Assembly (NCBI RefSeq): GCF_964213995.1
Contig: NW_027590468.1
Location: 190,071-250,000, forward strand
Source of the DNA: Mustelus asterias
Taxonomy: Eukaryota
Length of the DNA stretch: 59,930 bases
Reading direction: 5' to 3'
Every line of letters starts with the position of its first letter. Positions within the stretch are counted from its first letter, which is position 1. The translations under genes and the position numbers were made by a program. Shown here one piece after another: positions 2,744-29,112 of this stretch. Below the pieces are notes generated by a model that was given only the letters and a program-made list of their open reading frames with translations, was not told the DNA's origin and made no database searches.

Positions 2744-3214
2744 ATGTTCCTGATTCTAGTTATTGCACTGATCACAGGTCAGTGATTCTGGTCACAGATT
2801 GTAAAGTATATCGCAAACCTTGTGCAATTTCCCTTTCCCAGCGCTGTGTGACTATCGTCTTCCTCTGACTCCTAACCCGCTGTGCGTCCGCTGTTTATTT
2901 TCAGAGATGAGTAATGGAGACTCAGTGTTCCAGTCAGAACCAGGAGTTGAAGCAGCAGAGGGTGAAGATTCAGCAATACCCTGCAGTTACTCTGTGCCGA
3001 GTTCAGCTATACAACATGACCTGTTCTGGTATCGCCAGTATCCACACCGAGCTCCTCAGTATCTGCTCAGAGCCAATAGTTATGGGTTTACCGATACGGC
3101 TCCCGGCTTTGGACACTTCAGCGGGAATCTCAACCAGACACAAAGCACTTTTCACTTGTCCATGAAAGATTTGAAGATGAGAGACAGCGCCGTGTGTTAC
3201 TGTGCACTGAGACC
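2744..3214 (+). CDS. TCR alpha/delta V segment, family A (leader exon 2744-2777, V exon 2905-3214), apparently intact
   Basis: Leader MFLILVIALIT|gt; ag acceptor at 2904; PCSYS..LFWYRQYP..DSAVCYCALRP; followed by a 23-RSS. Confidence 0.9.
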
Positions 3215-3253
3215 CACAGTGAGTGAGGCTCCCGCGGGCCTCAGACAAAAAGT
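3215..3253 (+). other. 23-bp spacer recombination signal sequence
   Basis: CACAGTG-23 nt-ACAAAAAGT. Confidence 0.95.
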
Positions 3254-3639
3254 GACGCAGACGTTTCAGGGTCAGAGAAAAAGAGTCGGATCTCAACGAA
3301 AATGCGCAGAAAATGAAGGCCACAATACAGCCCCAGCTGAATAATATTCCCCCACTGAGCTCAGCCATTGTCAGTGTTGTGAAATGTCACATTTGCCGTC
3401 CTATTATTCCCGGATCAAATCCAACCATTCTCCGACCCCATCCGCACAAAATCTGCAGATTATCCCGGGTGAATAACTTCCTTAATCTGTACTTAGAAAG
3501 ATTCTGGATTCGGTGCCTATCTGCCCGGCCACACATTTTAAAAGTGATCTATTGTCAAATGCAGCCTCAGAATTGTCCCATTTTCAAGTCCGTGGAGCAG
3601 AAATAATGACTGCTTGAAATCAGAGCTTTTCTATTTGGG

Positions 3640-4110
3640 GAATAGAGGGGTACAGTGAAGATTTACCATGCTGATTCCTGGGATGGCAGGTCTGTCATAT
3701 GACGAGAGATTAAATCCGTTAGGATTATATTCACTGGGGTTTCGAAGAGTGAGGGGATCTCATAGAAACTTATAAAATTCTAACAGGGTTAGACAGGGTG
3801 GATTCAGGAGACTGTTCCCAATGCTGGAATCCAGAACTAGGCGTCATCTTTTGAAAGTAAGGGATAAACTGAGGTGAAGGGAAATCCCTTCATCCAGAGA
3901 GTGTTGAATGCATGGAATTCAGTACCACCGAATGTAGTTGAGGCCAAAACGTTGTCTGATTTCAAGAAGAAATTTGATATAGCTCTTGGGGCTAAAGGGG
4001 TCGAGGGATATGGGCGAGGGGGAAGGGGGATCAGGATATTGAACTCCATGATCAGCTATGATTACGATTAATGGCGGAGAAGGCTCCTGCTTCTAGTTTC
4101 TATGTTATGA
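3640..4110 (+). mobile_element. CR1-type LINE 3' fragment
   Basis: Remnants RFTMLIPGMAGLSY, FIQRVLNAWNSVP, FKKKFD, and a CR1-like 3' tail ending ttctatgtt. Confidence 0.75.
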
Positions 4111-4214
4111 GTCCGTGAAATATTTCCTGGTGCAGAGTTGAGTGACGACTTATCCCCGGTACACTTACAGCACTAACTATTAATTATGTTGAGTCATGGC
4201 CATTAGTCTCAACG

Positions 4215-4488
4215 AGCCTGTCCCGACAACAATCCCACCCAGGCCCTATCCCCGTAACCCACATATTTAACCTGCTATCCCCTGACACTAAAGGTAATCT
4301 TGCGTGGCCAATCCAGCAAACCTGCACAGTTTAGGAATGTGGAAGGAAACTGGAGCACCTGAGGAAACCCACGCAGACACGGGGAGAAAGTGCAAACTCC
4401 ACAGAGACAGTGACCCGAGGCTGGAATCGAACCCCTGTCCCTGGGGCTGTGAGGCAGCAATGCTAACCACTGCGCCACCGTGTCGCCC
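4215..4488 (-). mobile_element. HE1-type tRNA-derived SINE
   Basis: Reverse complement begins GGGCGACACGGTGGCGCAGTGGTTAGCATTGCTGCCTCACAGC...GGTTCGATTCC (A/B boxes); matches many other copies in the window. Confidence 0.85.
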
Positions 4489-5060: not shown

Positions 5061-5064
5061 TCGC

Positions 5065-5228: not shown

Positions 5229-5666
5229 ATGTGTTCCCTGTGTGCTTTACTGATAATAATGGTCACGCTGCCCGGTGAGTCTGAGTTCAAATCCTCAGTG
5301 TGTGTTTCATGGGTTATATTTGTTCACAGATTTCTCACACATTCTACATTTTGTTGCAGGAATCAATGGCCAAGATTCAGTTTCCCAGGACCCGGCTGAA
5401 TTAACGGTTCAGGAAGGATTGAACGTAACAGTGAATTGTAATTACACAACAAAAAATGCTTTTCCAAATCTCTTCTGGTACATCCAGTATCCCGGGGAAG
5501 CTCCGAGATATTTACTGCAGAAATATGGCACGGGTGGCGGAGAAAAGTCTCCAGATTTCCCTGACCGGTTTTCTGCTGATTTGGACAAGGACAAGAAAAC
5601 GGTTCTTTTAAATATCGCCGGTGTCCATGTCTCTGACTGTGCCGTGTATCACTGTGCGCTGAGCCC
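5229..5666 (+). CDS. TCR alpha/delta V segment, family B (leader 5229-5274, V exon 5360-5666), intact
   Basis: MCSLCALLIIMVTLP|gtgagt; QDSVSQDP..VNCNY..LFWYIQYPGEAP..DCAVYHCALSP; RSS CACACTG-23-ACAAAAACC at 5667-5705. Confidence 0.92.
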
Positions 5667-6059
5667 CACACTGTTACAGAGACACAGTCAGCCCGTACAA
5701 AAACCTGCAAAGGCACTCTCACCTCCTCTCACTGAATCAGATCTGTGACCTGGATTGTAAACTGTTAATATAAACAAGACAATAGCATAACGAAGAGTTA
5801 GCCCGAATGCTCTCTTTCCATGGTGCTGAATGTGCCATTCTATATAAATTCCATTTTTATAGCTGTTTGGAGCAACTCTTCCAATGGAAAACTCTGCCGC
5901 TGTTGCCACAACGTTAACCAAGATCCATCTGCGTCCTATCTCAAAGATGAACTCCGGAAAATGACCAATATTCGTTTCCATGCCCTCACTTTGTCAAAGA
6001 GCGACATCACCATTCGGTCGTTTCGCTTCTTCGAGTCCAGTTCATTGTCTGAGAACAGA

Positions 6060-6480: not shown

Positions 6481-6813
6481 GATAAAACGCTGGGCCGAAT
6501 GGCTTCCTTCTGTAGGGGTTCTATGATTCTATGATTCTCTGATCTCTATATATGTAAATCTTTGCCGTTGGCCTTGTGTGAACCTGCTTCCGATATGCGG
6601 CTGTGCTGTCCACAGGAGGGCGCTCTCTGATCACTTATAAAAAGATCACCATACTCTTCAAAAGGAAGTATCTGTTTGAAGATGTAAAAATGGACGGAGA
6701 GAGGGAGTCACCTTCGACCTCATAACATCCCCCTGATTGTTTCAACTTCTCCAATTGCAGGTCTGATGCAGACAGACATCAGTCTCTCCGTTTCTGGTGT
6801 TCAGACTCGAACC

Positions 6814-7306
6814 ATGGGGTGAAACTCTGTGACTCCGGTTATTGTCCTGATTACAGGTCTGTCATTTTGAACTTCTGCGTGAAATCCTCAATCACCATAT
6901 TCATTCCTCATTTCCATCTGGAGGCGTTACTCCTTCAAACCCGCTGCGTGTCTGTTTTCTATTTTCAGAGATGAGTAACGGAGACTCAGTGCCCCCAGTC
7001 AGAACCAGGAGAGGGTGAAGATTCAGCAATGCCCTGCAGTTACTCGGTATCGAGTTCAGCTATACAACATCACCTGTTCTGGTATCGCCAGTATACACTC
7101 CGAGCTCCTCAGTATCTGCTCAGAGCCGCGAGTTATTTGTTTACCGAGACGGCTCCTGGACTTGAACACTTGAACGGGAATCTCAACCTGAAACAAAGCA
7201 CTTTTCACTTGTCTATGAAAGATTAGAAGGTGACAGACAGCGCCGTGTATTACTGTGCACTGAGACCCAGAGTGAATGAGGCTCCCGCTGGCCTCATATA
7301 AAAACT
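6814..7306 (+). pseudogene. TCR V pseudogene, family A
   Basis: Paralog of 2744-3214; leader ATG-GGG-TGA, FR1 indels, in-frame TAG at 7224, broken heptamer CAGAGTG-23-ATAAAAACT. Confidence 0.9.
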
Positions 7307-8189: not shown

Positions 8190-8625
8190 ATGTGTTCCCT
8201 GTGTGCTTTACTGATAATAATGGTCATGCTGCCCGGTGAGTCTGAGCTCAAATCCCCAGTGTGCATGGGTGATATTTACTCACAGATTTCTCACACATTC
8301 TATATGTTGTTACAGGAACCAATGGCCAAGATTCAGTTTTCCAGGACCTGCTCGAATTAACGGCCCAGGAAGGGCAGACGGTAATATTGAACTGCAACTA
8401 CACAACAAAATACACGACTGGCGAGACTCTCTTCTGGTACATTCAATATCCCGGGGAAGCTCCGAGATATTTACTGAAAAAATACAGCACGGGGAAGGGA
8501 GAAAGGTCTGCAGATTTCCCTGACAAGTTCTCTGCTGATTTAGATCAAGACAAGAAAGCAGTTCCTTTAACAATCACCAGTGTCCGTGTCTCTGACTGTG
8601 CCGTGTGTCACTGTGCGCTGAGCCC
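8190..8625 (+). CDS. TCR alpha/delta V segment, family B (leader 8190-8235, V exon 8316-8625), open frame
   Basis: QDSVFQD..LNCNY..LFWYIQYPGEAP..DCAVCHCALSP; RSS CACACTG-23-ACAAAAATC at 8626-8664. Confidence 0.88.
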
Positions 8626-8829
8626 CACACTGTTACAGAGGCACAGTCAACCCGTACAAAAATCAGCAAAGGCACTCTCACCTCCTATTACTGAATCAGG
8701 TCTGTGACCTGGATTGTGAACTCTTAATATAAACAAAACAACATTATAAAGAACAGTTAATGCGAACGCTCTCTTTCTGTGGCGCTGAACGTATGCTATT
8801 TGATGGGAAAGTCCTCTTGACAGAAGTTT

Positions 8830-9839: not shown

Positions 9840-10128
9840 ATTGCGGCTTTGCTTCTTTACTCATTCCTCACAACTGCAGGTCTCTCAACTGGTAAGCCCC
9901 GAAGTTGCACAGTTCGCGGGCGATACTGACACAGCGATCTTCCCTTTAACATTGTTTCCTTTATTTGCAATTATTTAATTACCCTGATCACATTGTTTCT
10001 AGTAAAGTGCAAAGGACAAAGCGAAAGCTCTTATTTCTATTTTTGCAGGTATCAGTGGTGCAGTTTCTATCTCTCATGAGACGGTTGTTGCAACAAGGAT
10101 TGAAGCAGGATCGCTGACGATTAATTAA
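9840..10128 (+). pseudogene. Truncated V pseudogene, family C (leader 9840-9891 with ATT start, FR1 only)
   Basis: IAALLLYSFLTTAGLST|gtaagc; acceptor at 10048; GISGAVSISHETVVATRIEAGSLTIN* stops at the position of the first Cys. Confidence 0.7.
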
Positions 10129-10144
10129 AATTTAATTAAGTGAT

Positions 10145-10483
10145 ATGATAGTCCTCCGGGTTTATAGATTCTCTTTGCTGTTTCTCACTCTGATCTGCAC
10201 CGCGATGACTGTTGAACAAGAGTTGCTGCAGCTCCCTCAGTGGATGGAAGTTAGTGAAGAGGGAATCGTAACCATGAATTGTACCAGCGCCAGTGTGATG
10301 AACATGGTGCATTGGTACAGACAGTTCCCAAATCAACCACCTCAACATCTGGTGATGGCCATAAGAGAAACCAATCAACACGAGAGGATCACTGCCACAG
10401 TCGGGGGAGACAACAAACTCAGTGTCCTGACTGTGAGAGACACGCAGCTGACAGACACTGCCGCCTATTCCTGCGCCGTGAGG
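10145..10483 (+). CDS. TCR alpha-type V segment with leader and V apparently in one exon
   Basis: MIVLRVYRFSLLFLTLICTAMT continuous with ..TMNC..VHWYRQFPNQPPQHLV..DTAAYSCAVR; RSS CACAGTG-23-ACAGAAACC at 10484-10522. Confidence 0.85.
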
Positions 10484-11249
10484 CACAGTGTAACAAATAC
10501 ATGGAGAGCTCGTACAGAAACCTACACCGAGTAGCAACTGAGCTCTACTGTGTTTGGGGAATCGGGTTTTAAGTGGCGTGGTAATAATAAGGGCTGGGGG
10601 ATTGTGCACGAAAGCAAGTGCATCTCACAGAGGAAGAACTAAAGCGGAACAGAAATGAAGAAATGTGGAAACAAACACAGAGAAATAAAAAGCAAACAGA
10701 TAAAGGCACAGAGGGAAAATGCAATAATGATAACGAGCAAAGAACAAAACATTCGTGAACGATGGAAAAAGAAATGAAATAAAGTGTAAAATAACCAGCG
10801 TCAGACACAGAGGTTAAAAATTAGGGCAAGTTATAAATGAAAATAATCCCAAATAAAGTTGTATTTAATTGTTTTATCAAAATTCATACTTCGTTTATAG
10901 TTAGGCAGTTAAATTTTCTGATAAAGTTTCCTAAGAACTGGTTCTTGGATATTGCTGCATTGAAAAATTAACAATTTCCTCAACGTTCTGATGCTGCAAA
11001 ATTCTTTAAAATTCCTAGATGCTGGAATGTTCTTGCCTGCTACTTGGGAAATGTGTTCATTTTCGGCAAACTGTGTCTAAACCAGCAACATACCGTGACC
11101 ATATCAACTGGGGCCCAGAAGCGGAGAGTGGAGATGAAGGGAGGGTTATACATTAATTCAGGGTTTTCACAGTAACATCATTGCAGTGTTAACGTAAGCC
11201 TACTTGTGACACTGATAAATCAACTTTAAACATAAACTTCTATTTGATA

Positions 11250-11730
11250 GCGCTGGAAAGAGTGCAGAGGAGATTTACCAGGATGCTGCCTGGTTTGGAG
11301 GGTAGTCTTATGAGGAAAGGTTGAGGGAGCTCGGGCTGTTCTCTCTGGAGCGGAGGAGGCTGAGGGGAGACTTAATAGAGGTTTATAAAATGATGAAGGG
11401 GATAGACAGAGTGAACGTTCAAAGACTATTTCCTCGGGTGGATGGAGCTATTACAAGGGGGCATAACTATAGGGTTAGTGGTGGGAGATATAGGAAGGAT
11501 ATCAGAGGTAGGTTCTTTACGCAGAGAGTGGTTGGGGTGTGGAATGGACTGCCTGCTGTGATAGTGGAGTCAGACACTTTAGGAACATTTAAGCGGTTAT
11601 TGGATAGGCACATGGAGCACACCAGGATGGTAGGGAGTGGGATAGCTTGATCTTGGTTTCAGATAAAGCTCGGCACAACATCGTGGGCCGAAGGGCCTAT
11701 TCTGTGCTGTACTGTTCTATGTTCTATGAT
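11250..11730 (+). mobile_element. CR1-type LINE 3' end (young)
   Basis: LERVQRRFTRMLPG..LGLFSLERRRLRGDLIEVYK..FFTQRVVGVWN; tail (GTTCTAT)n. Confidence 0.9.
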
Positions 11731-12245
11731 AGATATGTGGAAATATCATGAAAAGACAAAATGGGAGTGAGCCCATCATACAATGATTTCTGAAATTGAT
11801 TTTCAATGTAGATGTTACTTTTCATTGTTAATCAGTCACAGGTAAGGCACTGCAATGATGTTACTGCGCAATTGCCTTAGTCGCCACATTCCGGTGCCTG
11901 TGCGGGTCAATGTACCTAACAGCATGTCGTTCAGAATGTGGGACGAAACCCACGCAGACACGGGAAGAATGTGGAAACTCCACACAGACAGTGAACCAAA
12001 CCTGGGCCCCTGGCACTACGAGGCAGCAGTGCCACCCACCGTGCCGCCGTGCCACCCACGTGCTAGTTATGTTAGTTAGAAACAACTAACATAATTCCTC
12101 AGTTGCTGCTCCTCCTCCTGTTGGTGTTGTGTTTTGTGTTGGTATTTTATTGATGGCTCTGTGACCCTCACGGGATGAGTAATTGTTCCTGATTAGCACA
12201 GGAAGCGCGCCCTCCGCTGGTCACTAACTGGAACTCCCAGTCTGC

Positions 12246-12700
12246 AGTTCTTGTCCGGAATCCGCTCGATCTCTGCAGCAGAGTGTGGGCGGCAGAGCAG
12301 ATAAATGCGGGGCGCTCTCGGAGAAAAGCACCCCAGCGATATTTAAAGGAACCATTTTGCTTTTGTTCAAACCAACAGGGAATCAGTCCAGAAAACTTGA
12401 GAAGTGCGTTTCCGTGCTGTATAACGTCAACAGACACTTTGAGCCTTCCCCGGCAGACTGGGGTGTACCAGAACCGTGTTCGACCAGCTGTCGAGTAACT
12501 GCAATCCAGTGTTACTGTCTGTCCTTCCTGAACCCTAAATTCAGAAGTACCTGGGGTAGTTTATCTTTGCTATTGTTTCCTGCAACAAAATATAGTATTG
12601 ATTAAATGTCTGGTAGAGAACGCTGGGAACGGGCAGTGGCGATTTAAACACAGAATCATTGGACAGCAAGATGAACAGTATTAGTAAAGAACACCGGGAC
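12246..12700 (-). pseudogene. Inverted TCR V pseudogene, family B-like
   Basis: Minus-strand acceptor ttgcag with exon from 12579; VQEGQTVTLDCSYS, FWY and VPLNIAG remnants with frameshifts; degenerate RSS with nonamer ACAAGAACT; leader relic ~12660-12700; promoter-like relic ~13020-13120. Confidence 0.75.
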
Positions 12701-13699
12701 AACTTGCTTCCTATTGTAGAGATAGTTACACTTCTCGGGGCTAAATGGGTCAAATGATATCGTGGAAAAGAAAGAACATAATGAACATAATGAGGATGGA
12801 GTAGGTTCAAAGGGCTGAAAGACCTCCTCATGCTCCTATTTTCTATGTTTCTATTGGACACTGAATCATAGTCATTCATTCCTGTAACACAAATACGGAA
12901 TGCTTCAGGGACTAGATGTAACCCCTGGATGTCACACTGACCAGTTAAAAATATACTTGCAGCGAGAAAATGCTGCCTGCTTTCGTATTGGACAGAAAGT
13001 AATAAAACGCTCCAATTGTGTTGAATGCTGCTGTCTGACAGAGTCCCACCCACTTTGCAATCTGGCTTCACTTATTGAGAACTGGCGTTTTATCCAGGAA
13101 CAGGATTGGCTTCTCTGCTCGAACTGCTGATTATTACCCACCAATAAACGAGAGCTGCAGACATTTTTTTCTGATTCGTGATCTTTCTCTCGGTGACTTT
13201 TCTGCTCTCTCGTTCTCGTTGTCACGGTCTCTGTCTTTATGACGAGACAGCCATTCATTTAGGAAATTTCCTCACCGCTTTCAAATGGTTGGCAGCGAAT
13301 ACAAATAATTCAGAGCGGCGAATATATTTTTACCAATTCAAAAAACATGCCGTTACTCGAAACCGCCACCAGGCGGCGTGACCATTATTGCGGTGTTTTC
13401 ACATTGACGCCCAACAGTCAATAAATATCCTTTCTGTTTCATTCAACAAACCGTGGTGACCAGAGACCATGAGGATGACACGGCACATATAAATTGACGA
13501 GTAAGGTATAGAAAGAGAAACTGAATAAGCGTTTAAAGATGAAGGAGCAAGAGGATGTGTAGGTTGCTGTGCAGAGAATGAGGATGGAGATCAATGATGT
13601 TAATCTGCACCTACAACCCCGTTAAATTCTGTTGTAGACGGAACAAAGTGGCAATATGTGCACGTTGTCAAAATAGAAACGCTTCCTTCCTGTCAGTGC

Positions 13700-15999: not shown

Positions 16000-16183
16000 A
16001 ATTCAGTTCTTCTAACTTTTTTTTCCTCTCTGATGTTGACCTGCTGTCTGACTTCATAGAATCATAGAATCCCTACAGTGCAGAAGGAGGCCATTTGGCC
16101 CATCGAGCCTCCACCGACCATAATCCCACCCAGGTCCTGTCCTATCACCGTAACCCCACATATTTAATCTCCTAATCCCCCTA

Positions 16184-18645
16184 CATGTGTCCCTCCATTC
16201 ACACAACAAGAACTATTCAGTCTGCACAGCAGCTTCAGTCTCATTCCCCCAGTTTGTTTTCCACCTTTTATCACTCCAATTCTTCTCCCACATACTTCAC
16301 ATCCTAACATTACAATACAAACTTGATAATCTCTCCAATTTGACATTTGTTCAGGGGTACAGACAGCAGATAAATTATCAATTACACTCCCAACCTGGGC
16401 TATGGTGATACATTTACACATGATCTCATTTCACAATAAAACCCACACACCGGTTTTAAGTTTGCTTCCGTTATTGCTGTTGTGCCCCGCAGGTTGATTA
16501 AAGTGACATTGACATCAACACTTTATGGTCTCTGTCTCTCTCTGCGTTNNNNNNNNNNNNNNNNNNNNNNNNNNNNNNNNNNNNNNNNNNNNNNNNNNNN
16601 NNNNNNNNNNNNNNNNNNNNNNNNNNNNNNNNNNNNNNNNNNNNNNNNNNNNNNNNNNNNNNNNNNNNNNNNNNNNNNNNNNNNNNNNNNNNNNNNNNNN
16701 NNNNNNNNNNNNNNNNNNNNNNNNNNNNNNNNNNNATGTTTTTAGTTTTATTTTATTTGATTTATTATTGTCACATGTATTAGTATACAAAGAAAAGTAT
16801 CGTTTCTTGCGCGCTATACAGAGAAAGCATACATTTCATAGAGAACAGTAAGAAGTCTCACAACGCCAGTTTCAAGTCGAACATGTTTATTTGGAATCAC
16901 GAGCTTTCGGAGCGCTGCTCCTTCATTAGGTGAGTGGAGAGGTAGGTTTTACAAACACAGCATTACACGTACATGGAGAAGGAAAGGAGCGAGTGCAGAA
17001 TGTAATGATACAGTCATAGCTAGGATGGAGAGAAATTTCAATTTAATTAAAACATTGTTATAGAGTTCAAAAGAGTTAGAATATCGTTTTAAAAGCATAG
17101 ACCAAGAGTAAAAGATAGCATTAGAGAGATGATGGGCACAGCTTGCAACAAGGTCCGACGCCATCTTGATTTTTTTGGTTTGTCTCTGTGTTTATCTGAG
17201 GGTGTGTGTGTGTGTGTTTGTTGTCTGAGTGTTTATGTCTATGTCTCTGTGTGTGCGACTTTGCTTGTGTCTATTTGTCTGCAATCGTGTGACTGTTTCT
17301 GCCTGAGGCTGTGTGTGTGTGGGTGTGTGCCTGTGTATGTTTGCTTGTCTGGTCATGTGTGTATATGTGTGTGTGTGTTATGCTGAAAGTGTGTGTCTGT
17401 GAGTTTGCGAGTTTGCCTATGTTGTTTGACTGAGATCATGTGTGTGCCCATATTTGACTGTGTGCATGTGTTGCTGTGTGCGTGACTGTGTTTGCCTGAG
17501 TGTTTGTGTGTGTGTGTTTGTGCGTGTGTGTTTTTCTGTGATTGTATGTATGTCTGAGTGTTTGACTGAGACTTGTGTCTAAATGTGTGTGTTTTGTCTG
17601 AGAGTTTGTGCTCATCTGTGTGCTTGCATCAGAGTGAATTTGTATGCATATGCGTGTTCGTTTGATAGGACATCTGTGTGTGGGTCTGTTTCTGTATGTT
17701 TGTCAGCGTGTGTGTGTGTGTCTGTGTGCATGCATGTCTGAGAGCATATGTTTTCTTTGTGTGTTTGTCTGAGTTTTTCTCTCTATATGTCTATGTTCAC
17801 GAGTTTGCTTGTGTGTTTGCCTGAGTGTGTGCTTATGACTGTGTGTTTGTCTGTGAGTGCATGTGTATGCCTGTGTTTTTCTGAGAGTGTGTGTCTGTGT
17901 GTTTGCAAGATTTCCTGTGTCTGTTCGTCTGAGAAATGTGTGCCTGTATTTGCCTGACTGTGTTTGCGTGTGTGTTTGTCTGTATTTGTCTGAATGCGTG
18001 TGTGTGTTTGTGTCTGTGTGGTTGTCTGTATGTGTGTGTGTGCTTGTCTGACAGCCTGTCTGTGTGTCAGAAAGAGAGATAAAGTATGGGTGCGTGTGTG
18101 TGTGTGTGTCTGAGCGTGTATATCCATGTATGTGCCTATGCGTGCGAGTTTGCCTGTATCGGTTTTTCTGAGATCCTGTGTGTGTGCGTGCTCGTGACTG
18201 TTTGTTTGTCTGTGTGTGTGTTTGCGTGTGTGTTTTTCAGAGGTGCATTTGGCTGTGTGTGTGTATGTGTTTGCGAGTTTGCTTCTCTCTGCTTGTTTCA
18301 GAACTTGTGTGTTGGTCTGAATGTGCGTGTGTGTATGTTTGGGTATGTGAGTTGGTCTCGGATTGTGTGTGTGTGAACATTTAAAATATAAATGGATGAT
18401 AGAAAAGCTACAGCACAAACAGGCCCTTCGGCCCACAAGTTGCGCCAAACATGTCCCTACCTACTAGGCTTACCTATAACCCTCTATCTTACTAACTTCC
18501 ATGAACATATCCAAAAGTGTCTTAAAAGAACCTATAGAATCCGCCTCCACCACCACTACCGGCAGCCGATTCCACGCACCCACCACCCTCTGAGTGAAAA
18601 ACTTACTCCGAACATCTCCTCTGTACCTACTCCCCAGCACCCTAA
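16184..18645 (+). repeat. Left arm of ~2.5 kb inverted segmental repeat (includes 187-N gap and TG-rich degenerate satellite)
   Basis: Near-identical reverse complement at 53903-56668; ORF translations 17129..17386(+) and 55182..55439(-) differ by one residue. Confidence 0.92.
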
Positions 18646-19480
18646 TCTCAAACCATCAAGTCCTGGTAGCATCCTAGTAAATCTTTTCTGCACTCTTTCT
18701 AGTTTAATAATATCCTTTCTATAATAGTTTGACAAGAACTGTACACAGTATTCCAAATGTGGCCTTACCAATGTCTTGTAGAACTTCAACAAGACGTCCC
18801 AACTCCTGTATTCAATGTTCTCACCGATGAAACCAAGCATGCCGAATGCCTTCTTCACCACTCTGTCCACCTGAGACTCCACTTTCAAGGAGCTATGAAC
18901 CTGTACCCTTGGATCTTTTTGTTCTATAGCTCTCCATAACACCCTCCCATTAAATGAGTAAGTCCTGTTCTGGTTCGATCGACGAAAATGGATCACTTCG
19001 CATTCATCTAAATAAAACTCCATCTTCCATTCACCAGCCCACTGGCCCAATTGATTAAGATCCCATTGATTGCAATCCTTGATAACCTTCTTCACTGTCC
19101 ACTATGCCACCAATCTTGGTGTCATCTGCAAACTTACTAACCACGCCTCCTAAATTCTCATCCAAATCATTAATATAAATGACAAATAACAGTGGACCCA
19201 GCACTCATTCCCGGAGGCACACTGCTGGCCATAGGCCTCTAGTTTGAAAGACAACCCTCTACAACCACCCTCTGTCTTCTGTCATCAAGCCAATTTTGTA
19301 TCCATTTAGCAACCTCAACCTGGATCCCGTGAGAGTGTTTCCAGCTTCTGCTCCAACCGAACCATGCGGTCTGTGAGGAGCTGCAGCTGGTCACACATCC
19401 CGCAAACATAGCCGCCAGGGACACTAGAAAGTTCGCTGATCTCCCACATCTTGCAGGAGGAACATATCACGGCCCTAACT
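18400..19480 (-). mobile_element. CR1-type LINE fragments (RT and ORF1-like remnants)
   Basis: ORF 18556..19095 contains [14 protein letters not shown] and [14 protein letters not shown]; SKFADDTKIGG upstream. Confidence 0.85.
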
Positions 19481-19836
19481 GCCATCTCTGCACTTGGACA
19501 CTGAAAAAAAATAAAAGAATAAGAATCTTACTTGCTTTTGACAAAGAGGGACATTCCCAAACTCTGGGTGGCAACAGCCAGAGGGGTCGCGGACCGAGAT
19601 TCTCGGGTCGGGAGCTCCGAGGCTGCGATAACTGTGGAACCTCGACTGAATGTTCATAGCTTCCCGCCACCTTCAGATTCTCGAGATTTATTTTAAACAA
19701 TGGGCGTGGCCTAAATTGACGACGTTCGGGCCTGATGTCTTTCAGTTCAGCTCTGAGATCCAGTGTCCCAGAGCAGTCCAGCTCTGCAGTCTCCAGCTCC
19801 CCGTCATATAAACCATCAGCTACGGGCAGCAGAGCG

Positions 19837-20316
19837 ATGGGAATCCTTCTTGTTTTCAGCCTGTGTGTCTGTTTACCCCGTGAGTACTGGTCACACTAAA
19901 CTACATTGTGTGGATTGAATATAAAGCTGCCCCAGTCCATCCCAATTACAGACATTGTCTGGAGTTTTAGCCCCGTTGTGTGGTTCAGCTCTGATGGGCC
20001 TTTAAACTCTCTGTGTTTAATTTCCAGGATCTTTCAGTCAGTCAGTGGTACAGAGCCCGGAAGCGGTGACCAGGAAGGAATGTCAGTCCCTCACCATCAC
20101 CTGTGTTTTCTATGGTGGATTCTTTGCTCGTGCTTTGGAGAGGGCGGAATTCTTCAGACAAACACAGGCTGGGACAGAGTGGGAGCGGGTCTCCGGCGGA
20201 GGGAGATTTGTTGTGTCGGTGAATAAAGCAACAAAGACATTTTCGTTGGAAATTCGGGATGTGAGAGTTGAAGACGCCGCCACCTATTACTGTAAAGCTC
20301 ATTACGAAGGCTACGA
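19837..20316 (+). CDS. NAR-TCR variable segment, IgNAR-like (leader 19837-19879, V exon 20028-20316)
   Basis: MGILLVFSLCVCLP|gtgagt; VVQSPEAVTRKECQSLTITC..WERVSGGGRFVVSVNKATKTFSLEIRDVRVEDAATYYCKA. It has the NAR-like CDR2 deletion and extra FR1 Cys; RSS CACCGTG-22-ACTAAAACT at 20317-20354; TATAAA at 19807. Confidence 0.9.
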
Positions 20317-20680
20317 CACCGTGATGGGTCTCGGCTTCCCGCCATACTAAAACTCTCACTGAAGATTTTCACATAAACAAATGAAAAAGCGGAGTTAATC
20401 TTCCCTGACACCCGCACAGTCCCATCGCACACCGTCAATCCCACAGTCAAGTTTATAATGAGGATTTGATTATTACCGTTAACATTCTGAGTGTTAGAAA
20501 CATGGAGTGTGTGCGGAAGCTGATATCGTTCCCGGGATTGGCGTTGATGAATAAAGAATGGAAATGACTGATCCCAGTTACAAACCCAAACAAAAGATGG
20601 GATCATCGTCTCTCAGCTGGAACTGGGAACCGCAGTCCCCGCTATTTAATTAATGTCCCTACATCTCACACAGTATCTGG

Positions 20681-20753
20681 GGTTTTGATGCTGAATTATA
20701 ACACTGTGTAGTGGTTGGGACCACTCACAGTGAAAAGGAGCTGAGCAAATACC
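20681..20753 (+). other. NAR-TCR D segment (coding 20709-20725) flanked by 12/12 RSS
   Basis: GGTTTTGAT-12-CACTGTG [TAGTGGTTGGGACCACT] CACAGTG-12-GCAAATACC. Confidence 0.92.
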
Positions 20754-21101
20754 TGTGCACAATTACCTTATACATTCGCAGGGCCCAGAGAGAGAATTAT
20801 GGGTTGATGTTATTAGCGCTGCAATCTGGATTAATTACATTGCACTTTCCATCACTCACATCTTTCTTTGATATTTTTCTCAGTTAATATGAAGCTACTA
20901 TCTCCTACCTGGGGATATTTACTGAGAACACGGGGCCTCAAAAAGAACAGTTTGAACTGACAGAGACTTCAAAACATTGAAAAATATTTATTGATTTAAA
21001 TCCCCCGAATAATGGGAACTTCCAAATGACTGTGATGATTTCCCGTCAAGTTGAGTAGTCGGTAGTTCTTGTACGGGGAGACTGAGATCGGTATCAGTGT
21101 G

Positions 21102-21153
21102 TACGACTGGTATGATGTCGATGGATCAGGGACGGTGGTGACTGTCACAGCCG
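21102..21153 (+). CDS. NAR-TCR J segment (YDWYDVDGSGTVVTVTA)
   Basis: RSS AGTTCTTGT-22-CAGTGTG at 21064-21101; NAR-like xGxGTVVTV motif; phase-1 donor gtaagt at 21154. Confidence 0.92.
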
Positions 21154-23344
21154 GTAAGTGACTCCAAACCCCGCCGTGTTGCAAAATGTCTCGTTTAACG
21201 TTCACCGTCATTTTATTATCGTGATCTGTATCGTTTCAGTCCAATTGATACGGATAAGGATCTGTTTACAGATCCGTTACAGATTTTGATTTGGGAGCAG
21301 GACGTGATTTAGGAGTCGATCCAGGTCAGCCCTGGGGAAAGCGAGTGTGAGACCTGATGCAGAAGGCGGTCAGCGCTGTAGGGATAGTGGTGGTTGTAGG
21401 GATGGAAGTGGAGGGGTGGGGATTGGATGGGCTGTGATGTGAGGGTTGACAGTATTTGGGTCATTATTAGTTTAACGGGCACATCGGGGTTAACATCCAT
21501 ATCAAGGGCTTTCACAATCCTGATATTTTATAACAAATTATCGGCACTCTGGAATCCACCTTCGGTGTTAATTGTGACCGAGGGAGATCTGCCTGTCTCG
21601 AACAGCCCGGCAGTGGGATCGCAGAGCTCTATCCTGGGCAGTAGACTGCAGTCCCTGCCGTGTAATGTGAAGAAGCTACCGGTTGAATGAGATCAGTGCC
21701 ACTGCGGACAGTTCATTTAACAGTTCATCCAATACCTGTCCCGGGAGACAAATAGAATAAAAGAGACAACAGACTTCAGACATTAGAGACCCTGGTTAGT
21801 TCTAGATTGAATTTTTCAATAGAGAAATCAGTTACTGAAATTAGTGAAATTGTACCTGACATTCCTCTAAACATCCTCCATATAACCAATCACTTTCCTC
21901 ATTTTCCACCGTCAAAAGAGGCATAATTTAAAATGAAACCAAATCCCCCACACATGAAAACACTTTTGTTCGAAATGAATATAACTGGAGTTTTACCATT
22001 TTTATACTGAAATATTAAACTAAACTGACTTAAACCTATACTTTATTTCTAATGTCCAAAAACACTGAAGAGATTAGTTAAACTATCTTTGTTTCCTGAC
22101 AGTTGTCATTTACAGAAGACAATAAATACATAAATTCGAATAAATTCAAACAGGGAGAGCCAGAATGTGGATCTCGCTGTCACATTGAATGTTTGGAGCA
22201 GAGGCGAGTGGTACATTTATGGGAAGACTCGAAAATACTGAAAGGAGAACAGAATAGACCGACAGAGTGAGCTGGATTGAAATGATCAATTAGATTTCTG
22301 ACGGGTGAGGCTGGTCGGGTGTTTCTATGCAGACATCAGTGAGTTAGACCGAATTGCCTGTTCCTCTTCTGCAGTTTCCACACAATGTAAAACTTAGAGA
22401 AAATTCCGCCCAGAGAGAGCAGAAGAGAATCAGTTAAAGAGCAAAAAAAGAATTGAAATTGTCAGAGAGCCAGAAGAGGCAGTTCCCAGTGAGTAACTGT
22501 AAAACCACTGCAGAAACTGAACAGAATAAACCCAACTGACAACTGAGAGACTTTGGGAGAACTTTCCACGATTGCAACGAACCCAAACAGCGCAAAATAA
22601 ATGTTGAAACAAAATAAAACTGACTGTAAATATTTCCAAGTAAAGAGAAAAGGAGAAAAGATGTTCCTGATAGTTAGATAGCAGAAGAAAACCAAATAGA
22701 TGAACAAACAGAGATTCCCGGGAAGTGTTAAACAGATATAAAGGAATGACATTTGAGCACCGATGTTCAACATCATTCCATCCCCATTGGAGCTGATGAA
22801 TCACAGTCATTCCCTGTTGGATCTTGCTGTGCGCTGTGACGTAACGCAGCTGGGTTAGTCACTTGGAACGGATTGCCTCACTGATAATAAAATGTTCCCT
22901 CGTGTTTGTCTCTTAGGAAGGGAAATAGAAAGTGAAATGTAACATACATCATTGAATCATAGAGTGCAAAAGGGTGACATTCGGCCCCTCGAGTAGATGC
23001 AGCCCTTTATAAGTGAAATCCAGTTCTTCCCCTCAGTCATGAATTTTCCCCATAACCCTATTTTATTCCTGTTCCGGCGCTTGACTATTCCTGTGTGTTT
23101 GTCACTGTTGATTCAGCTCCCACCATCATTCTGACATTGCATTCCAGACCGTTGGATCTTGTTGTGTAAAGAAAACCTCATTTTCCACTGGTTTACAATA
23201 ATAATAACAGTGAATACAGTTCCATCAGATTTAAAATAATAATAACACCGGATAAAACTGAGCTACTCCCGCAATTGACACATTCCCCTGGTAAACAGTG
23301 ACTGAACCACAGAAGAAAACGCTGTTTCTTTTTTTATCCTCCAG

Positions 23345-23657
23345 ATTCTAGTTCCCTGGTGTCTAAGAATCCGCCTCTCCAAACCTCTGCTGCTGGTGAC
23401 ACGGTTGCTTTAAGCTGTGAATATTCAGGTCTCTGTCAGTACACAGTACACTGGTACAGTCAGTCCGCGGGGAAGGCTCTGAAATACCTGCTTCAGACAC
23501 ACACTTCAGGAGAGGAGAATAAAAAAACTGCTGCCGGGGGGAGAATTTCTGCTTCTATCGATTCTGCCGAGAAAATCAGCTGGTTAAAGATCTCCAAACT
23601 GAAACTGAGCGATTCCGCTGTGTATTACTGTGCACTGAGTCGGAGCACATCTGGGAC
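23345..23657 (+). CDS. Leaderless supporting TCR delta V of NAR-TCR
   Basis: Acceptor ttttatcctccag in frame with the NAR J; ..ALSCEYSGLCQYTVHWYSQ..DSAVYYCALSRSTSG; extra CDR1 Cys; no leader exon recognised upstream; RSS CACAGTA-23-ACAATAACC at 23658-23696. Confidence 0.9.
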
Positions 23658-23954
23658 CACAGTAGTTGAATCTCTCTTAACGCCCGTACAATAACCTCCC
23701 AGCACCACGGGAGAAAACCAAACTCTCTCAATAGCACCCTCCCAACACCACTCCCCACCACCGCCTTCCATCCCCACCGAGCGTACACCATTACTGACCC
23801 ACCCCCACTGGGACACGGCAGAAGTTGTGTGGCTTTTGCTACCAAATAAACCTGTTGGACTTTAGCCTGGTGTTGTTAAACTTCTTACACGGCAGAAGGA
23901 CAGAGAAAGGTGGACGAGACCACAATGGATCTTGTTATGGAATCAAACGGTGTG

Positions 23955-24015
23955 TAACATGGAGAGACTAGAAAGCTCATCTTTGGCAATGGAAGCAGGC
24001 TGATTGTGAAACCCA
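23955..24015 (+). CDS. TCR J segment 1 (*HGETRKLIFGNGSRLIVKP)
   Basis: RSS GGATCTTGT-12-CGGTGTG at 23927-23954; FGxG motif; donor gtaagt at 24016; first germline codon is TAA. Confidence 0.85.
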
Positions 24016-24379
24016 GTAAGTAGCTAATCCTGGATAATGATTACTCAACATGTTATTTTCCCTCCATGACATCATTGAGACATACAATCGCTGTGTTATT
24101 TCAATTATCACTGTTGTTGTATGGAACGGGTCAGCAGTTCTCATTGGGAATCCAAAGAGCAGCTTCACTGGGCATTGAGATAGAGCAATGAGAACTTTAT
24201 TGTTTCCACAATTCAGGATTGTTTCCTTAAAACATTTAACTGGCCTTTATCATGAAAACCCACCTGGGTAGCTGGCAAGGAGATGTATTGCTGAAATGAT
24301 TGTGTGTAATGCAATTAAATGATACATTGATAGATAGTTAAAAGAGGAACATCCCGATAGGGTCATAGAGCCATAGAGA

Positions 24380-25062
24380 TAGACAGCACTGTAAAAGTTG
24401 CTTCAGCCTAATGAGGGGCAGAGATAGAGTAGACAGGAAGACACTTATCCCCATAATAGAGGGATCAATGAGCAGTGCTTTTTGGGGGCGATGCATTGAG
24501 TTAAAGTGCGGGGTAGGAGAGTTAGAGAGAATGTGAAGAGAACTTTTCCCCCAAAGGGCGATAGGAGCCTGGGACTCAGTGCCTGAAAGGCCGGTGTTGA
24601 CAGAAACCCACACAACATTTAAGGTGTATTTGGATATGCACTTGAAATGCCATATCACAAACGGCAATGGGCCAAGTGCTGGAAAATAGGATTAGAAAAG
24701 TCAGCTGGTTTACCTTTGGTGGGGCAGACATGATGGGCCGCAGGACCTTTGATGTGCTGTAGACTTCTATTTTATTCCCTGGTGGGAGAGTCAAGGACCA
24801 GAGGCATAATCCTAGAGTAAGGGGTTGTCCATTTAAAGAAAGAGATGATGAAGAATTTCTTCTTTCGGATGGTTCCTAATCTGTGGACATCTTTACCGCA
24901 GAGGGCTGTCGTTAATAATGTTCAGTCCTGGGATAGACAGATTTTAAATCCACAAGGAAATTGAGGGTTATGGGCATACGGTGGGAAAATGGAGTTGAGG
25001 ATTATCACATCAGATCAGCCATGATCTCATTGAATGGTGAACCGAATAGCCGACTTCTGCTC
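24380..25062 (+). mobile_element. Two degenerate CR1 3' fragments
   Basis: Remnants of the FFxQRxVxxWNxLP region and CR1-like tails. Confidence 0.6.
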
Positions 25063-25156
25063 AGGGAGAGATATCAGGGGAGATGGAAAATATGAAGCAC
25101 AGTCGATTTATTGATCCAATAATGTGCCTTTTAAAATTGTGAAAATCGTAGTAACT

Positions 25157-25225
25157 AAGTGTGAGGGAGCGGGAAGGAGGAAACTGTTACATTTGGTTCG
25201 GGAGAGAAGCTAATTAAGACGAGTA
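25157..25225 (+). pseudogene. Degenerate J relic (ETVTFGSGEKLIKT)
   Basis: FGSG motif, AAGTGTG heptamer-like sequence and gtaac donor; no recognisable nonamer at 12 bp. Confidence 0.45.
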
Positions 25226-25305
25226 ACATTAACTTAAACTGAATGTAAGCTAGCCCTGTGTTCATGTGGCTGGTTCTATGTTTTGTGGTAGCCGTTAACA
25301 CTGTT

Positions 25306-25365
25306 CTATCTACCAAACTGAGAAGCTTGTCTTGGGCAAAGGGACAAAACTCACTGTGAAGCCCA
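25306..25365 (+). CDS. TCR J segment 2 (IYQTEKLVLGKGTKLTVKP), non-canonical
   Basis: RSS ATGTTTTGT-12-CACTGTT at 25278-25305 (the coding-proximal heptamer base is altered); LGKG replaces FGxG; donor gtaagt. Confidence 0.8.
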
Positions 25366-26801
25366 GTAAGTCCTCAACTATTTTCCATCCTGATCTATTT
25401 ACAGTAGGGGGATAATTGAAAGTTACAGTTCGAATATATAAGTCACGATATCGTGTTTTTTTTTCAATCAGTATCGACTTTTGGGGAGGAGGGGTAATAT
25501 AATGGCCATTAATAATTTGGGGAGGTCTTGTGGCGTAGTGTGTTAAAGTCTCTGCCTCTGAGCCAGAAACGTCGGGTTCGAGTTCTAATCAATGTACTTG
25601 ATGGCCAAGGAAGCTGAGTTCATAACGCGGCCCAACACTGGTGGTAAGAGTGGGAGCGATTCCTGCTCAGCCACGTTTGATATGGAGCGTGGCTTCCTAA
25701 ATCTCTAAGCCCCTGGCAACAGTATAGCGAACTGTTCCAAAAATAGCTAGCTCTGGAAGCAGATTATATATCCTTCCCTGACTCCTTACATAAGTTCCCA
25801 ACCACCTGGCATATTCGTTTCATTGGGTGACCTTGCATTATTGTGAGGTGGTGGAACTGGGTCGCGGCGGTGGCCTAGTGGTATTATCGCTAGATTATTA
25901 ATCCAGGAACTCAATAGTTTTCTGGCGACCCGCGTTCAAATCTCGCCACGGCAGATGGTGGAATTTGAATTCAATAATCTGCAATTAAGAATCTACAGTT
26001 GATAATGAAAGCCATTGTTGGAAAAACCCACCTGGTTGAGTAATGTCCTTCAGAGAAAGAAATCTGCCATCCTTATCTGACCTGGCCTACATATGCAATT
26101 TGGTTGACTCTCAAGGGCAATTGGGAATGAATAATAAATGCTGGTCAGCCACCGGTTGCCCATGTCCCATGAATGAATACAAAATATCTCACTTTTGGAA
26201 AATGAGCCCAAGTTGATTCAACTAAACGTAAACGCATCTTTCAGACTCAACTGACTTACCTCTTCGAAATCTAACAGGATTGTGACAATAAGAACAGATA
26301 ATGTTGGGAAAACCCCCAGCAGGTCAGGCAGCATCTGTAAGGAGAGAAAGCTTAGTTAACAAATTAAATACTATCCTTTGAATCGTATTTCTTTTCTGCC
26401 AGGGGTTGAGGCGTCACTGGCTAGGCCATGTTGCAAATTTCTGTTAAGGCATTTCAGAGATTGGCAGAGCAGGCGCTAAGGGCTGAATAGCCTTCCCTTG
26501 TTCCTATGTTTCCTAACCTATGTTCAGAGGCTAAATATATTTGTTGCAGGGGGAGGATGTGGATGCTATATTTGACTAGTGGCTACCTTGGCTCAGAAAT
26601 TCTTCACGTTGATAGAATCTTAGAGCATCCAAGGAGGGTATTCGGCCAATTTAGCCTTTGATGGTGCGAAGGGGAAGATATGCAATATCTGTTGCCTGCA
26701 GCGAATCAGTGACTATTCCAGCTTTGCCTTTGCCGTGAACTGCCTGAAATCTGAAACAGCTATCTCAATAGAAGGTTTCTGTCTGAGCAATTGTTACTGT
26801 G

Positions 26802-26851
26802 CTACGATAAGCTAACGTTCGGCAGCGGCACCCAGGTGACAGTTGTACCAA
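26802..26851 (+). CDS. TCR J segment 3 (YDKLTFGSGTQVTVVP)
   Basis: RSS GGTTTCTGT-12-TACTGTG at 26774-26801; donor gtgagt at 26852. Confidence 0.93.
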
Positions 26852-27174
26852 GTGAGTGTAAAGTCAGTGTTTCTTTTTCTTTCATTCCACATCTCCTCTG
26901 TGATCTAGTTTTCTGTTGTAAGTGTTCTAGTCAAGTTAGGCAGAGTGCCAATATAATATGTGGCATGCAGACGAAGAGATTGCACGGTTTTGAGTCAGTT
27001 TTGATCAAGCTCAGCTTACCCAGGCATTAGAGGGCCCCAGTATTATGGTATTGAACTGAGAAGCAGAATTGTGTCCTGTTAACGGGATAGGAAGATTCCA
27101 TCCAGAGAGTTAACCCAAAAGAAAGGGGGGAGACGAGCAAGCATCATTGTTCTGTTTAAACTCCAAAATCAAAT

Positions 27175-28000
27175 CTCTTACAGCAGAGATGGGGCCCTTC
27201 AGCCCGTCGAATCTCCACCAATAAAACGACACAAAATCTACACTAATCCCACTTTCTGGCACTTGGCCCATAACCTTGAATGTTACAACATTTGAACTGT
27301 TCATCCACCTACTGCTTAAATATTGAGAGTTTCCTCGCCTCTGTTACCCTCCCAGGCAGTGCATTCGAGACATCCACCACACTCAGGGTCAAAAACAAAT
27401 TTCTCAAATCCTCAGATCCCGCCTAAACGTCCTGCTACTCATCTTAAAATTATATCCCTCGTTATTGACCGGTTAACTAAGGGGAACAGCTGTTCCCACT
27501 TCCAGGCAATGCATTGCATGACAGAACCAATCGTTCTGTAAAAAAGTTATTTTCTCATTTCACTTTTTCCTCTGTTGGAAATCATTTTAAATCTCTGCCC
27601 TCTCGTTCTCCATCCTCTTGCGAGAGGGAACATCTCCTCCCTCTCTATTGTAACCAGCCCCCTCGTGATTTTGAACAGCTCGAATAAATCTCCTCTTAAC
27701 CTTCCCTCCAAGGGAACAGTTCCAATCTTTCCAACCTATTCTCATACCTCATAACTCATATTCTCATAACATTTCCAAGTTATTCTCAAACTGAAGTTGC
27801 TCATCCCTGCAACCGTCCTGTCAACCTTTTTACTTCACTCCCTCCAACGCATTCCCATCCTTCCTATAGTGGGGTTCCCAGAACTTTTCACAATATTCCA
27901 ATTGAGGTTTAATTGGATGTCTTGTATAAGTTCACCATAACCTCTTTGCTCTTGTACTCGATGCCTCGATCAATAAAGCCCAGAATGCTTCATTAGCCGC
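27175..28000 (-). mobile_element. Degenerate CR1 fragments
   Basis: Reverse-complement CR1 3' tail and RT C-terminal remnants. Confidence 0.55.
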
Positions 28001-29052
28001 TCTGGCAAAAAATACATAGAGGGTCTTAGAGTTACGATAGAACAACTGTACTGATAGGCAAACTGATGGCTTCGGTGGATAATTCCAACAGAAATAGGGT
28101 TCTCATAGCTGTTTAAAGAAAAATAATCCTGAGGGATGGAAAGTGCCCTGATGTGCCTTTGATGCCTCTTTCGAATGCTGTGTTAGCATTTACACTTTCA
28201 TAGGATATGAGCGTCACTGGAAAGGCGAACATTTGTTATTCATCCCTAATTGCCCTTTGAAATGAGTGACTTTCTCAGTTTTAGAGGGACAGTTGCGAGC
28301 CAACCACATTGCTCTTGGTCTGGAGTCACAAGTAGAACAGGACATATGAGATTTCCTTCCCTGAAGGACATTAGTGATTCTGTCGAGTCCTGAAGCGAAT
28401 CAAAAATTGTTTCATGGTCCCATTCCTGAGACTAGATTTCAACTCCAGATTTTATTAATCAAATTGAAGTTCCACCAGATGCCATGATGGGATTTATACG
28501 CACGTAGCCAAGTGTGTTGTCGTGACCTCTGTAATACTTTTTCAGTGGCATTATCATCCCGCCACTCATGGGCTTTTGAAACATTCGAGCAAAGGAACCT
28601 AAGTTTAATGGGAGAGTGGAAATAGAAACATAGGAAGTTGGAGCAGGAGTAAGCCATTCGGCCCTTCCAGCCTCCTCCACCATTCATTATGACCAAGGTT
28701 GGTCATCCAACTCAATAGCCTGTTCCTGCTTTCCCCCCATATCCTTCTATCCTTTTAGCCCAAGAGCCATATTTAATTCTTTCTTGGAAGCATAATGCTT
28801 TGGCTTCAACTGCTTTGTAATTGTGAATTGCACGGGATTTTCATTCTCTTGGTGAAAAAGAAATTCTCCTCATGTCAGTCCCATATCCTTTGGCAATGAA
28901 CCCCGGTTCTCGATCCTGCCGCCATCCTGCATCAACCCAGATGAACCGGCTGTGGAAGCAAATCGAATTTCAAAAACCTCGTCATGAAAAACAATCCTAA
29001 CATTGCTATTCATGTGGGTTATGTCAATTTTGTACCATCTGGTGTCACTATG

Positions 29053-29112
29053 CACACTTTGCAATCAGAAAGCTTATCTTTGGCAGTGGAACAAAACTCA
29101 CTGTCGAACCTA
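29053..29112 (+). CDS. TCR J segment 4 (HFAIRKLIFGSGTKLTVEP)
   Basis: RSS CAATTTTGT-12-CACTATG at 29025-29052; donor gtaagt at 29113. Confidence 0.88.

What the first reader, a model, noticed from the sequence alone, without database searches (positions are those of the whole stretch)
2744..29112. RSS wiring permits non-canonical chimeric joins across the NAR cassette
Seen spacers: TCR Vs 23; NAR V 22; D 12/12; NAR J 22; supporting V 23; TCR Js 12. By the 12/23 rule, (a) upstream TCR Vs can join the NAR D and then the NAR J, giving a TCR-V/TCR-V two-domain chain; (b) NAR V can join TCR Js directly, giving a single NAR V on C-delta; (c) upstream V-to-J joining deletes the whole NAR cassette, making NAR-TCR and conventional chains mutually exclusive per allele. 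The NAR D is the only D seen and cannot join the TCR Js (12/12). Whether these joins occur is inference.
Basis: partly seen in the sequence, partly recalled or inferred. Interest (0 to 1): 0.7.

Follow-up and report, generated by a model that had tools for sequence, protein, structure and literature searches.

The report
Pre-joined supporting V in shark NAR-TCR

Summary
The 'supporting V 23-RSS' is D-delta's 3' RSS. The V is fused to the last 6 bases of D-delta at 23649/23652, a coding-joint-like junction shared by three diverged copies. The window is one of 19 C-delta clusters; 11 keep a free supporting V, IgH Vs and a free 12/23 D-delta. So D-delta is consumed here, and per-allele exclusivity cannot decide a cell's receptor. 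Joins (a), (b) and (c) obey 12/23 but left no coding joint: 0 of 18 NAR D and 0 of 19 J1 copies. No RNA run was listed. Two exact signal joints in sister clusters (NAR D x supporting V; D-delta x NAR V) do show RAG pairing NAR-type with TCR-type signals; their germline or somatic origin is open. J2 and J4 have lost the CAC heptamer. Earlier notes of this scan reported the C-delta miniclusters and NAR V-D fusions on other DNA; my three look-ups did not list the supporting V/D-delta fusion. Verdict: new variant of NAR-TCR, resembling TCR-mu. The key shark papers were not held.

The parts
2744..3253 (+). TCR alpha/delta V1: leader 2744, V exon 2904-3214, 23-RSS 3215-3253; open frame
   Evidence: 98%-identical inverted copy downstream of C-delta at G000:C436:293827-294132
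5229..5705 (+). TCR V2: leader, V exon 5361-5666, 23-RSS; open frame
6813..7266 (+). V3 pseudogene (V1 family): stop, frameshift, no CAC heptamer
8190..8664 (+). TCR V4 (V2 family), 23-RSS; open frame
10145..10522 (+). TCR V5 with a leader-like stretch contiguous with the V exon, 23-RSS
16302..18645 (.). 2.3-kb segment (N at 16549-16735) repeated inverted at 53904-56202, 95-97.6%; left of it the window stops matching the upstream flank of sister clusters
19837..20354 (+). NAR-TCR V: leader 19837, exon 20028-20316 (a-b loop Cys, no Trp in the WYRK motif), 22-RSS
   Evidence: features as in PMC1845163
20681..20753 (+). NAR D (20709-20725) with 12/12 RSS
21064..21153 (+). NAR J with 22-RSS and splice donor
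23345..23649 (+). Leaderless supporting V-delta with CDR1 Cys, trimmed by one base at its coding end; its own RSS is gone
   Evidence: 96-97% identity to unjoined supporting Vs ends exactly at 23649
23650..23696 (+). Junction (2 extra bases), D-delta remnant 23652-23657 and D-delta 3' 23-RSS 23658-23696
   Evidence: matches free D-delta, its RSS and flank in sister clusters at 89-93%; loose ends of public contigs break at the same place
23927..24016 (+). J-delta 1, 12-RSS with weak heptamer CACACCG
25279..25365 (+). J-delta 2: heptamer AACAGTG, LGKG motif; likely poor or dead
26774..26850 (+). J-delta 3, good 12-RSS
29025..29112 (+). J-delta 4: heptamer CATAGTG; likely poor
36314..39714 (+). 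C-delta: Ig exon 36314-36626, connecting exon 39134-39190, TM/cytoplasmic exon 39605-39714; open frame
   Evidence: 19 copies in G000

Best explanation
The window is one TCR-delta/NAR-TCR minicluster in which the supporting V is fused to D-delta, likely by a RAG cut-and-join in an ancestor's germ line, after which the cluster was likely copied at least twice. In a T cell the cluster would then need NAR V-D-J plus a single VD-to-J join (mainly J1 or J3) to give a two-V delta chain whose supporting domain has limited diversity, as in TCR-mu. Shown: the anatomy, the fusion point and the three copies that share it. Inferred: germ-cell RAG origin, expression and functional bias. They are not shown to make receptors.
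For: The breakpoint sits at the V coding end (one base trimmed) and inside D-delta, with D-delta's RSS and flank continuing. The same junction is in C436 (window), C119 and C96, which differ 1.3-1.6% around it, while the window differs from each by 18 of 309 nt in the C exon. The three share decayed J2 and J4 heptamers. J4 is intact in the 16 other copies; J2 is intact in the 4 others aligned over its RSS. 12 of 19 D-delta 3' RSS hits have a free D, and 7 are joined in five different ways. Public DNA contigs show both unjoined forms breaking at 23649/23652, and run X1 holds a piece across the junction with 1 difference at depth 70; neighbouring pieces of X1 are at 49-73. Junctions are mostly free of N bases, some with P-like bases, the pattern reported for germ-cell joins in shark Ig (PMC2193156).
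Against: No germ-cell or erythrocyte DNA and no RNA was examined. The X1 piece has only 30 bases on the V side, under the tool's 31-base bar, and X1 may be the assembly's own sample. The two extra bases could be N bases or a later one-base deletion. The D-J side is only 88-93% identical to the best unjoined copies, so the exact parent is not in hand. NCBI's automatic name for the protein is 'TCR alpha chain-like'; the delta assignment rests on architecture and one weak PDB hit. Upstream V1, V2, V4 and V5 look intact, so the cluster is not exclusively NAR-TCR.
Confidence: 0.82

Rival explanations
1. One reading: RSS wiring lets upstream TCR Vs use the NAR D-J (TCR-V/TCR-V chain) and lets NAR V join TCR Js (single NAR V on C-delta), and such chains are a real part of the repertoire.
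For: All pairs are 12/23-legal. Exact signal joints NAR D 12 x supporting V 23 (C122, 5.77-kb inversion) and D-delta 12 x NAR V 22 (C110:113696) show NAR-type and TCR-type signals being paired. Sharks tolerate IgH V to TCR-delta joins (PMC12227049, PMC5931798 passages). Intact Vs lie 10-17 kb upstream of the NAR D.
Against: 0 of 18 NAR D 3' RSS carry a TCR V; 19 of 19 J1 keep their RSS. The cross-cassette joints seen are non-productive. NAR V lies 393 bp from its D, against 10-17 kb for the TCR Vs. A lone NAR V would leave its a-b loop Cys without the supporting V's CDR1 Cys (inference from PMC1845163).
Confidence: 0.25
2. The fusion is a somatic lymphocyte rearrangement, or a chimera that the assembler built from such reads in a tangled, duplicated region.
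For: Many single-copy joints of different kinds lie on unplaced contigs, 99.3-99.96% identical to unjoined copies (C850, C122, C110). The C90 NAR D-J joint has a GC-rich insert typical of TdT. C436 holds a 99.4-99.99% direct repeat of window 46391-58928.
Against: The window's junction is identical in three contigs that diverge 1.3-1.6% locally and share derived J lesions. It appears at depth 70 in X1, and the same V-side junction appears in X5 under another organism label. This rival is much more plausible for the singleton joints than for the window's.
Confidence: 0.06
3. A RAG-independent deletion (microhomology repair or unequal crossing-over) removed the interval between supporting V and D-delta.
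For: The V end and the D share at most one base, so the junction can also be read as a one-base overlap plus a later one-base deletion. The region is rich in duplications.
Against: The break falls within one base of the V coding end and inside a 15-base D, across an interval of roughly 19-38 kb in sister clusters. Four other independent fusions end in the same D, one with P-like bases (C401). Three exact 12/23 signal joints lie in the same gene family.
Confidence: 0.05

Closest known systems
NAR-TCR of cartilaginous fish (Criscitiello et al. 2006; not held, known here from passages of PMC1845163, PMC5931798, PMC12227049)
   Same: NAR-like V with leader, a-b loop Cys and no WYRK Trp, its own D and J, then a leaderless supporting V-delta with CDR1 Cys, J-delta and C-delta.
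   Different: Described as two independent V(D)J rearrangements within a translocon TCR alpha/delta locus. Here the supporting V is already fused to D-delta, and the unit is one of 19 clusters, each with its own C-delta.
Mammalian TCR-mu (PMC7615758, PMC3457774 passages)
   Same: Repeated clusters [V-D-J]-[supporting V]-C, with a diverse outer domain and a supporting V of restricted diversity (germline-joined in marsupials, D-less V-to-J in platypus).
   Different: Not orthologous: the outer V is NAR-like, not VH-like. The supporting V is joined V-D only, still rearranges to J, keeps its intron acceptor and sits in place; marsupial Vmu-j is attributed to retrotransposition.
Germline-joined shark Ig genes (Lee et al. 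2000, PMC2193156 passages)
   Same: Joined and split versions coexist with high identity; junctions show trimming, P-like bases and little N addition; VD-only joins occur.
   Different: Those are Ig light and heavy chain clusters; this is a TCR-delta supporting domain.
Germline-rearranged TCR alpha/beta sequences of channel catfish (PMC6170632 passages)
   Same: Rearranged TCR segments reported in germline DNA.
   Different: Reported as complete V(D)J with N additions, proposed to be transposed copies away from C. Here it is a partial in-place join next to its J and C.

Membership tests
NAR-TCR | N-terminal NAR-like V with leader, a-b loop Cys, no Trp in WYRK | tested here: met
   translation; features from PMC1845163
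NAR-TCR | Own D and J for the NAR V, with RSS | tested here: met
   22 / 12-12 / 22 RSS
NAR-TCR | Leaderless supporting V-delta with CDR1 Cys | tested here: met
   splice acceptor before 23345, no leader seen between NAR J and the exon, Cys in CDR1
NAR-TCR | Constant region is C-delta | tested here: met
   sister copies carry a 12/23 D and 4-5 Js; a different C (31% identity) follows 18 Js in 12 kb on C546, read as C-alpha; the only TCR among 60 PDB hits is a delta chain, E 0.003, weak. No named shark C-delta was available for direct alignment.
NAR-TCR | Both V domains made by separate somatic V(D)J rearrangement | tested here: inconclusive
   NAR V-D-J is unrearranged and the supporting VD still needs a J join, but its V-D step is pre-done; no somatic data
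NAR-TCR | Expressed as a three-domain delta chain | not testable with these tools
   no RNA holder listed
TCR-mu | Outer V related to antibody VH; mammalian TRM orthologue | tested here: not met
   outer V has NAR-TCR hallmarks; resemblance is in organisation only
TCR-mu | Cluster organisation with own C per cluster | tested here: met
   19 C copies; three on one contig (C71) differ by 8-13 of 309 nt
TCR-mu | Supporting V germline-joined (VDJ) or D-less | tested here: inconclusive
   V-D joined in 5 of 19 clusters; a full V-D-J1 join seen in one contig of run X5 only
Germline RAG-joined antigen receptor genes | Junction at coding ends with trimming, little N, joined and split relatives closely alike | tested here: met
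   criteria from PMC2193156
Germline RAG-joined antigen receptor genes | Present in germ-cell or non-lymphoid DNA of several individuals | tested here: inconclusive
   three diverged copies and public DNA contigs point that way; tissue unknown

The most novel reading that the evidence does not exclude
In this shark lineage TCR-delta has become an Ig-like cluster family on which RAG acts in the germ line, promiscuously and across cassette and cluster borders. Repeated independent joins are fixing the NAR-TCR supporting domain step by step (free V, then V-D, then in a relative an in-frame V-D-J), retracing by in-place RAG joining the path that gave mammalian TCR-mu its invariant supporting V.
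Probability: 0.4. Interest if true: 0.82.

Novelty: new variant of a known kind. Interest (0 to 1): 0.62.

Why it matters
[quoted passage not shown] A clustered shark TCR-delta whose supporting V was pre-joined at least three times independently would show two unrelated double-V receptors converging on a fixed supporting domain. Joined and unjoined sisters in one genome make this testable. The retained signal joints also give a natural record of which RSS pairs shark RAG accepts, which bears on how NAR and IgH V domains entered TCR loci.

Tried and rejected
RNA test of the chimeric joins: no RNA holder listed, so both read-layings were of DNA-type contigs; one search was swamped by repeats and showed no V(D)J joint among the 15 rows printed (156 not shown). 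C-alpha reading of the window's C: rejected on architecture; the nurse shark C-alpha primer peptide in PMC5931798 matched neither C by eye or by a motif search of four stretches, so it did not help. A second free D in the window: none found in 10523-19800, 21160-23340, 23697-36313 or 39720-59930. Idea that the NAR-to-C block was flipped between the inverted repeats: not needed, since C119 and C96 also have inverted V arrays on both sides. Idea that the C71 14.38 Mb signal joint is the reciprocal of the C71 11.02 Mb V-D joint: rejected, the V families differ. Papers not held: PMC1458790, PMC7909615, PMC3222143, PMC7039070, PMC12010099. No structure or complex job was run; none would change the reading.
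Full report
What is in the window. The heptamer and nonamer consensus used for scanning is recalled, not taken from a call. The protein database lists the identical C-containing protein under Mustelus asterias with an automatic 'TCR alpha-like' name. The window is G000:C436:190071-250000.

The C is one of many. Its Ig exon has 19 matches at 82-100% amino acid identity, each with a TM exon. Among the 18 exons compared there are 13 distinct sequences. Some are identical and may be haplotype or very recent duplicates, but three on contig C71 differ by 8-13 of 309 nt. I fetched the DNA upstream of all 18 other copies. Eleven read NAR V-D-J, supporting V with its own 23-RSS, usually a TCR V, one or two IgH Vs, a free 12/23 D, 4-5 Js, C; one contig (C3311) ends too early to tell. 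A D with 12/23 signals and few Js marks these as delta. A different C (31% identity) behind 18 Js in 12 kb on C546 is read as alpha. The only TCR among the top 60 PDB hits is a delta chain, at a weak E of 0.003.

The missed feature. Window 23301-23649 matches an unjoined supporting V at 96.8% and stops one base short of its coding end. From 23649 on, the window matches D-delta, its 3' 23-RSS and its flank at 89%. The junction is V, two extra bases, then the last six bases of D-delta. So the '23-RSS of the supporting V' belongs to D-delta, and the window does hold a second D. Of 19 genome-wide hits to the D-delta 3' RSS, 12 have a free D. Three carry this same junction (window, C119, C96), two carry other supporting-V junctions (C850, C401), one a broken TCR V (C71 11.02 Mb) and one a D with an IgH-side 5' RSS (C138). 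The three same-junction copies differ by 1.3-1.6% around the junction, and the window differs from each of the other two by 18 of 309 nt in the C exon. They share broken J2 and J4 heptamers. J4 is intact in the 16 other copies; J2 is intact in the 4 other copies that aligned over its RSS, and 11 more aligned only over the coding part. A somatic event cannot give one junction on three diverged backgrounds, so I infer a germline join followed by duplication. Passages of PMC2193156 describe germ-cell joins in shark Ig as trimmed, P-bearing and poor in N bases. Most junctions here fit that by eye; the C90 NAR D-J joint, with a GC-rich insert, does not.

Public DNA contigs. 21 runs were listed, none on record as RNA. 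I laid six of them, in two calls. On 23540-23800, loose ends in all four runs show the unjoined supporting-V RSS behind 23649, and three (X1, X6, X11) show the D-delta 5' side before 23649-23657. X1 has a piece over 23620-23800 with one difference at depth 70; it has only 30 bases on the V side and X1 may be the assembly's own sample. X5, under another organism label, has one contig (depth 5.4, like its neighbours at 3.9-8.1) that follows the window's junction to 23654 and continues in J1 coding sequence. 29 of the 30 letters shown match 23963-23992, in frame by my reading, through a three-base overlap. It may be a fully pre-joined supporting V or a somatic join; one contig is weak evidence.

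(a) TCR V to NAR D: legal, but 0 of 18 NAR D 3' RSS hits have a TCR V upstream; 16 are free Ds, one is a NAR V-D fusion and one a signal joint. (b) and (c), any V to J: legal, but 19 of 19 J1 copies keep their RSS, as did the other Js annotated, and only J1 and J3 keep CAC in this copy. A genome assembly is a poor place to see somatic joins, so these zeros are weak. NAR D 3' 12-RSS x supporting V 23-RSS on C122 comes with a 5.77-kb inversion against a 99.5% identical copy and the matching D-to-V coding joint. D-delta 5' 12-RSS x NAR V 22-RSS lies at C110:113696, with the NAR V coding end left on a trimmed NAR J RSS, which I read as two successive 12/22 events. D-delta 5' 12-RSS x a TCR V 23-RSS at C71:14376803 is a canonical pair. 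These are 2 of 14 D-delta 5' RSS hits and 1 of 18 NAR D 3' hits. C850 joins a supporting V 99.3% like C154 to a J region 99.96% like C71 12.25 Mb, which suggests an inter-cluster join. Whether these singletons are germline or somatic reads caught by the assembler is open. Either way RAG is the likely cause, and no strict barrier separates NAR-type from TCR-type signals. None of the cross-cassette joints makes a receptor.

Exclusivity and flanks. Deleting the cassette by V-to-J joining is geometrically true for this copy, and it would give a D-less delta chain because D-delta's 5' RSS is gone. With 19 C copies it does not settle what a cell expresses. The V1-V5 array is not what lies upstream of C119 or C96; their upstream flank matches window 53904-59930 inverted, though they too have TCR Vs upstream, several broken. 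V1-V3 recur inverted downstream of C-delta at C436:289-297 kb.

Mechanism, with status. Shown: anatomy, fusion point, shared junction, J decay, signal joints. Inferred: one germline RAG join removed the competing TCR V and IgH Vs and left a two-step NAR V-D-J plus one-step VD-to-J programme, limiting diversity in the supporting domain. Untested: expression, pairing with gamma, and use of chimeric joins.

Literature seen. Passages by term search: PMC12227049 (also section 6 in full), PMC5931798, PMC1845163, PMC3457774, PMC6795676, PMC2193156, PMC3964593, PMC6170632, PMC7615758. Seven searches, seen as listings, showed no title or abstract start on a germline-joined supporting V or on C-delta clusters in sharks. 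The five most relevant shark papers were not held, and table S1 of PMC12227049 was not opened, so absence from print is not established. Earlier scan notes (none near this window) already describe C-delta miniclusters, NAR V-D fusions in another family and a kappa signal joint. They are unchecked AI notes, seen after my own results.

Verdict. Observation partly confirmed, interpretation partly supported. The stronger result is a pre-joined supporting V in a clustered TCR-delta family: new variant of a known kind, interest 0.62.

Noticed in passing
G000:C138:217702-218460: An IgH V lies about 435 bp from a 27-base D whose 5' RSS and first part are not D-delta type and whose 3' part and RSS are D-delta: likely a fixed IgH-D to D-delta trans-join feeding an IgH V into a C-delta cluster.
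   Followed up: partly
G000:C110:84774-85097; C90:1134083-1134180; C173:95046-95126: Pre-joined NAR V-D (C110) and NAR D-J (C90, C173) in this NAR family; C90's joint has a GC-rich insert.
   Followed up: partly
G000:C71:14376779-14376842: Exact signal joint of D-delta 5' RSS with a TCR V 23-RSS, which may be why the NAR cassette at C71:14.35 Mb has no C-delta hit nearby.
   Followed up: partly
window 46391-58928 and G000:C436:113197-125836: About 12.5 kb direct repeat at 99.4-99.99% identity on the same contig: very recent duplication or assembly artefact.
   Followed up: no
window 12293-12542 (-) and 58474-58630 (-): Reverse-strand TCR V pseudogene fragments.
   Followed up: no
window 10145-10483: V5 appears to have its leader contiguous with the V exon (no intron), behind a truncated leader and V start at about 9840-10130.
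   Followed up: no
G000:C71:18431812-18431904: A C-alpha-like TM exon with no J or C Ig exon detected in the 17 kb upstream; the fuller C-alpha candidate is on C546.
   Followed up: partly
P0009, P0012, P0010: Heptranchias perlo models list two similar C-delta-like chains with the same longest-contig length, one with NAR J and supporting V; a catshark model joins an IgH V to this C. Several C-delta genes may be wider than this genome.
   Followed up: no
G000: Dozens of further NAR V and supporting V copies, many supporting Vs in tail-to-tail pairs, lie away from any C-delta hit.
   Followed up: no
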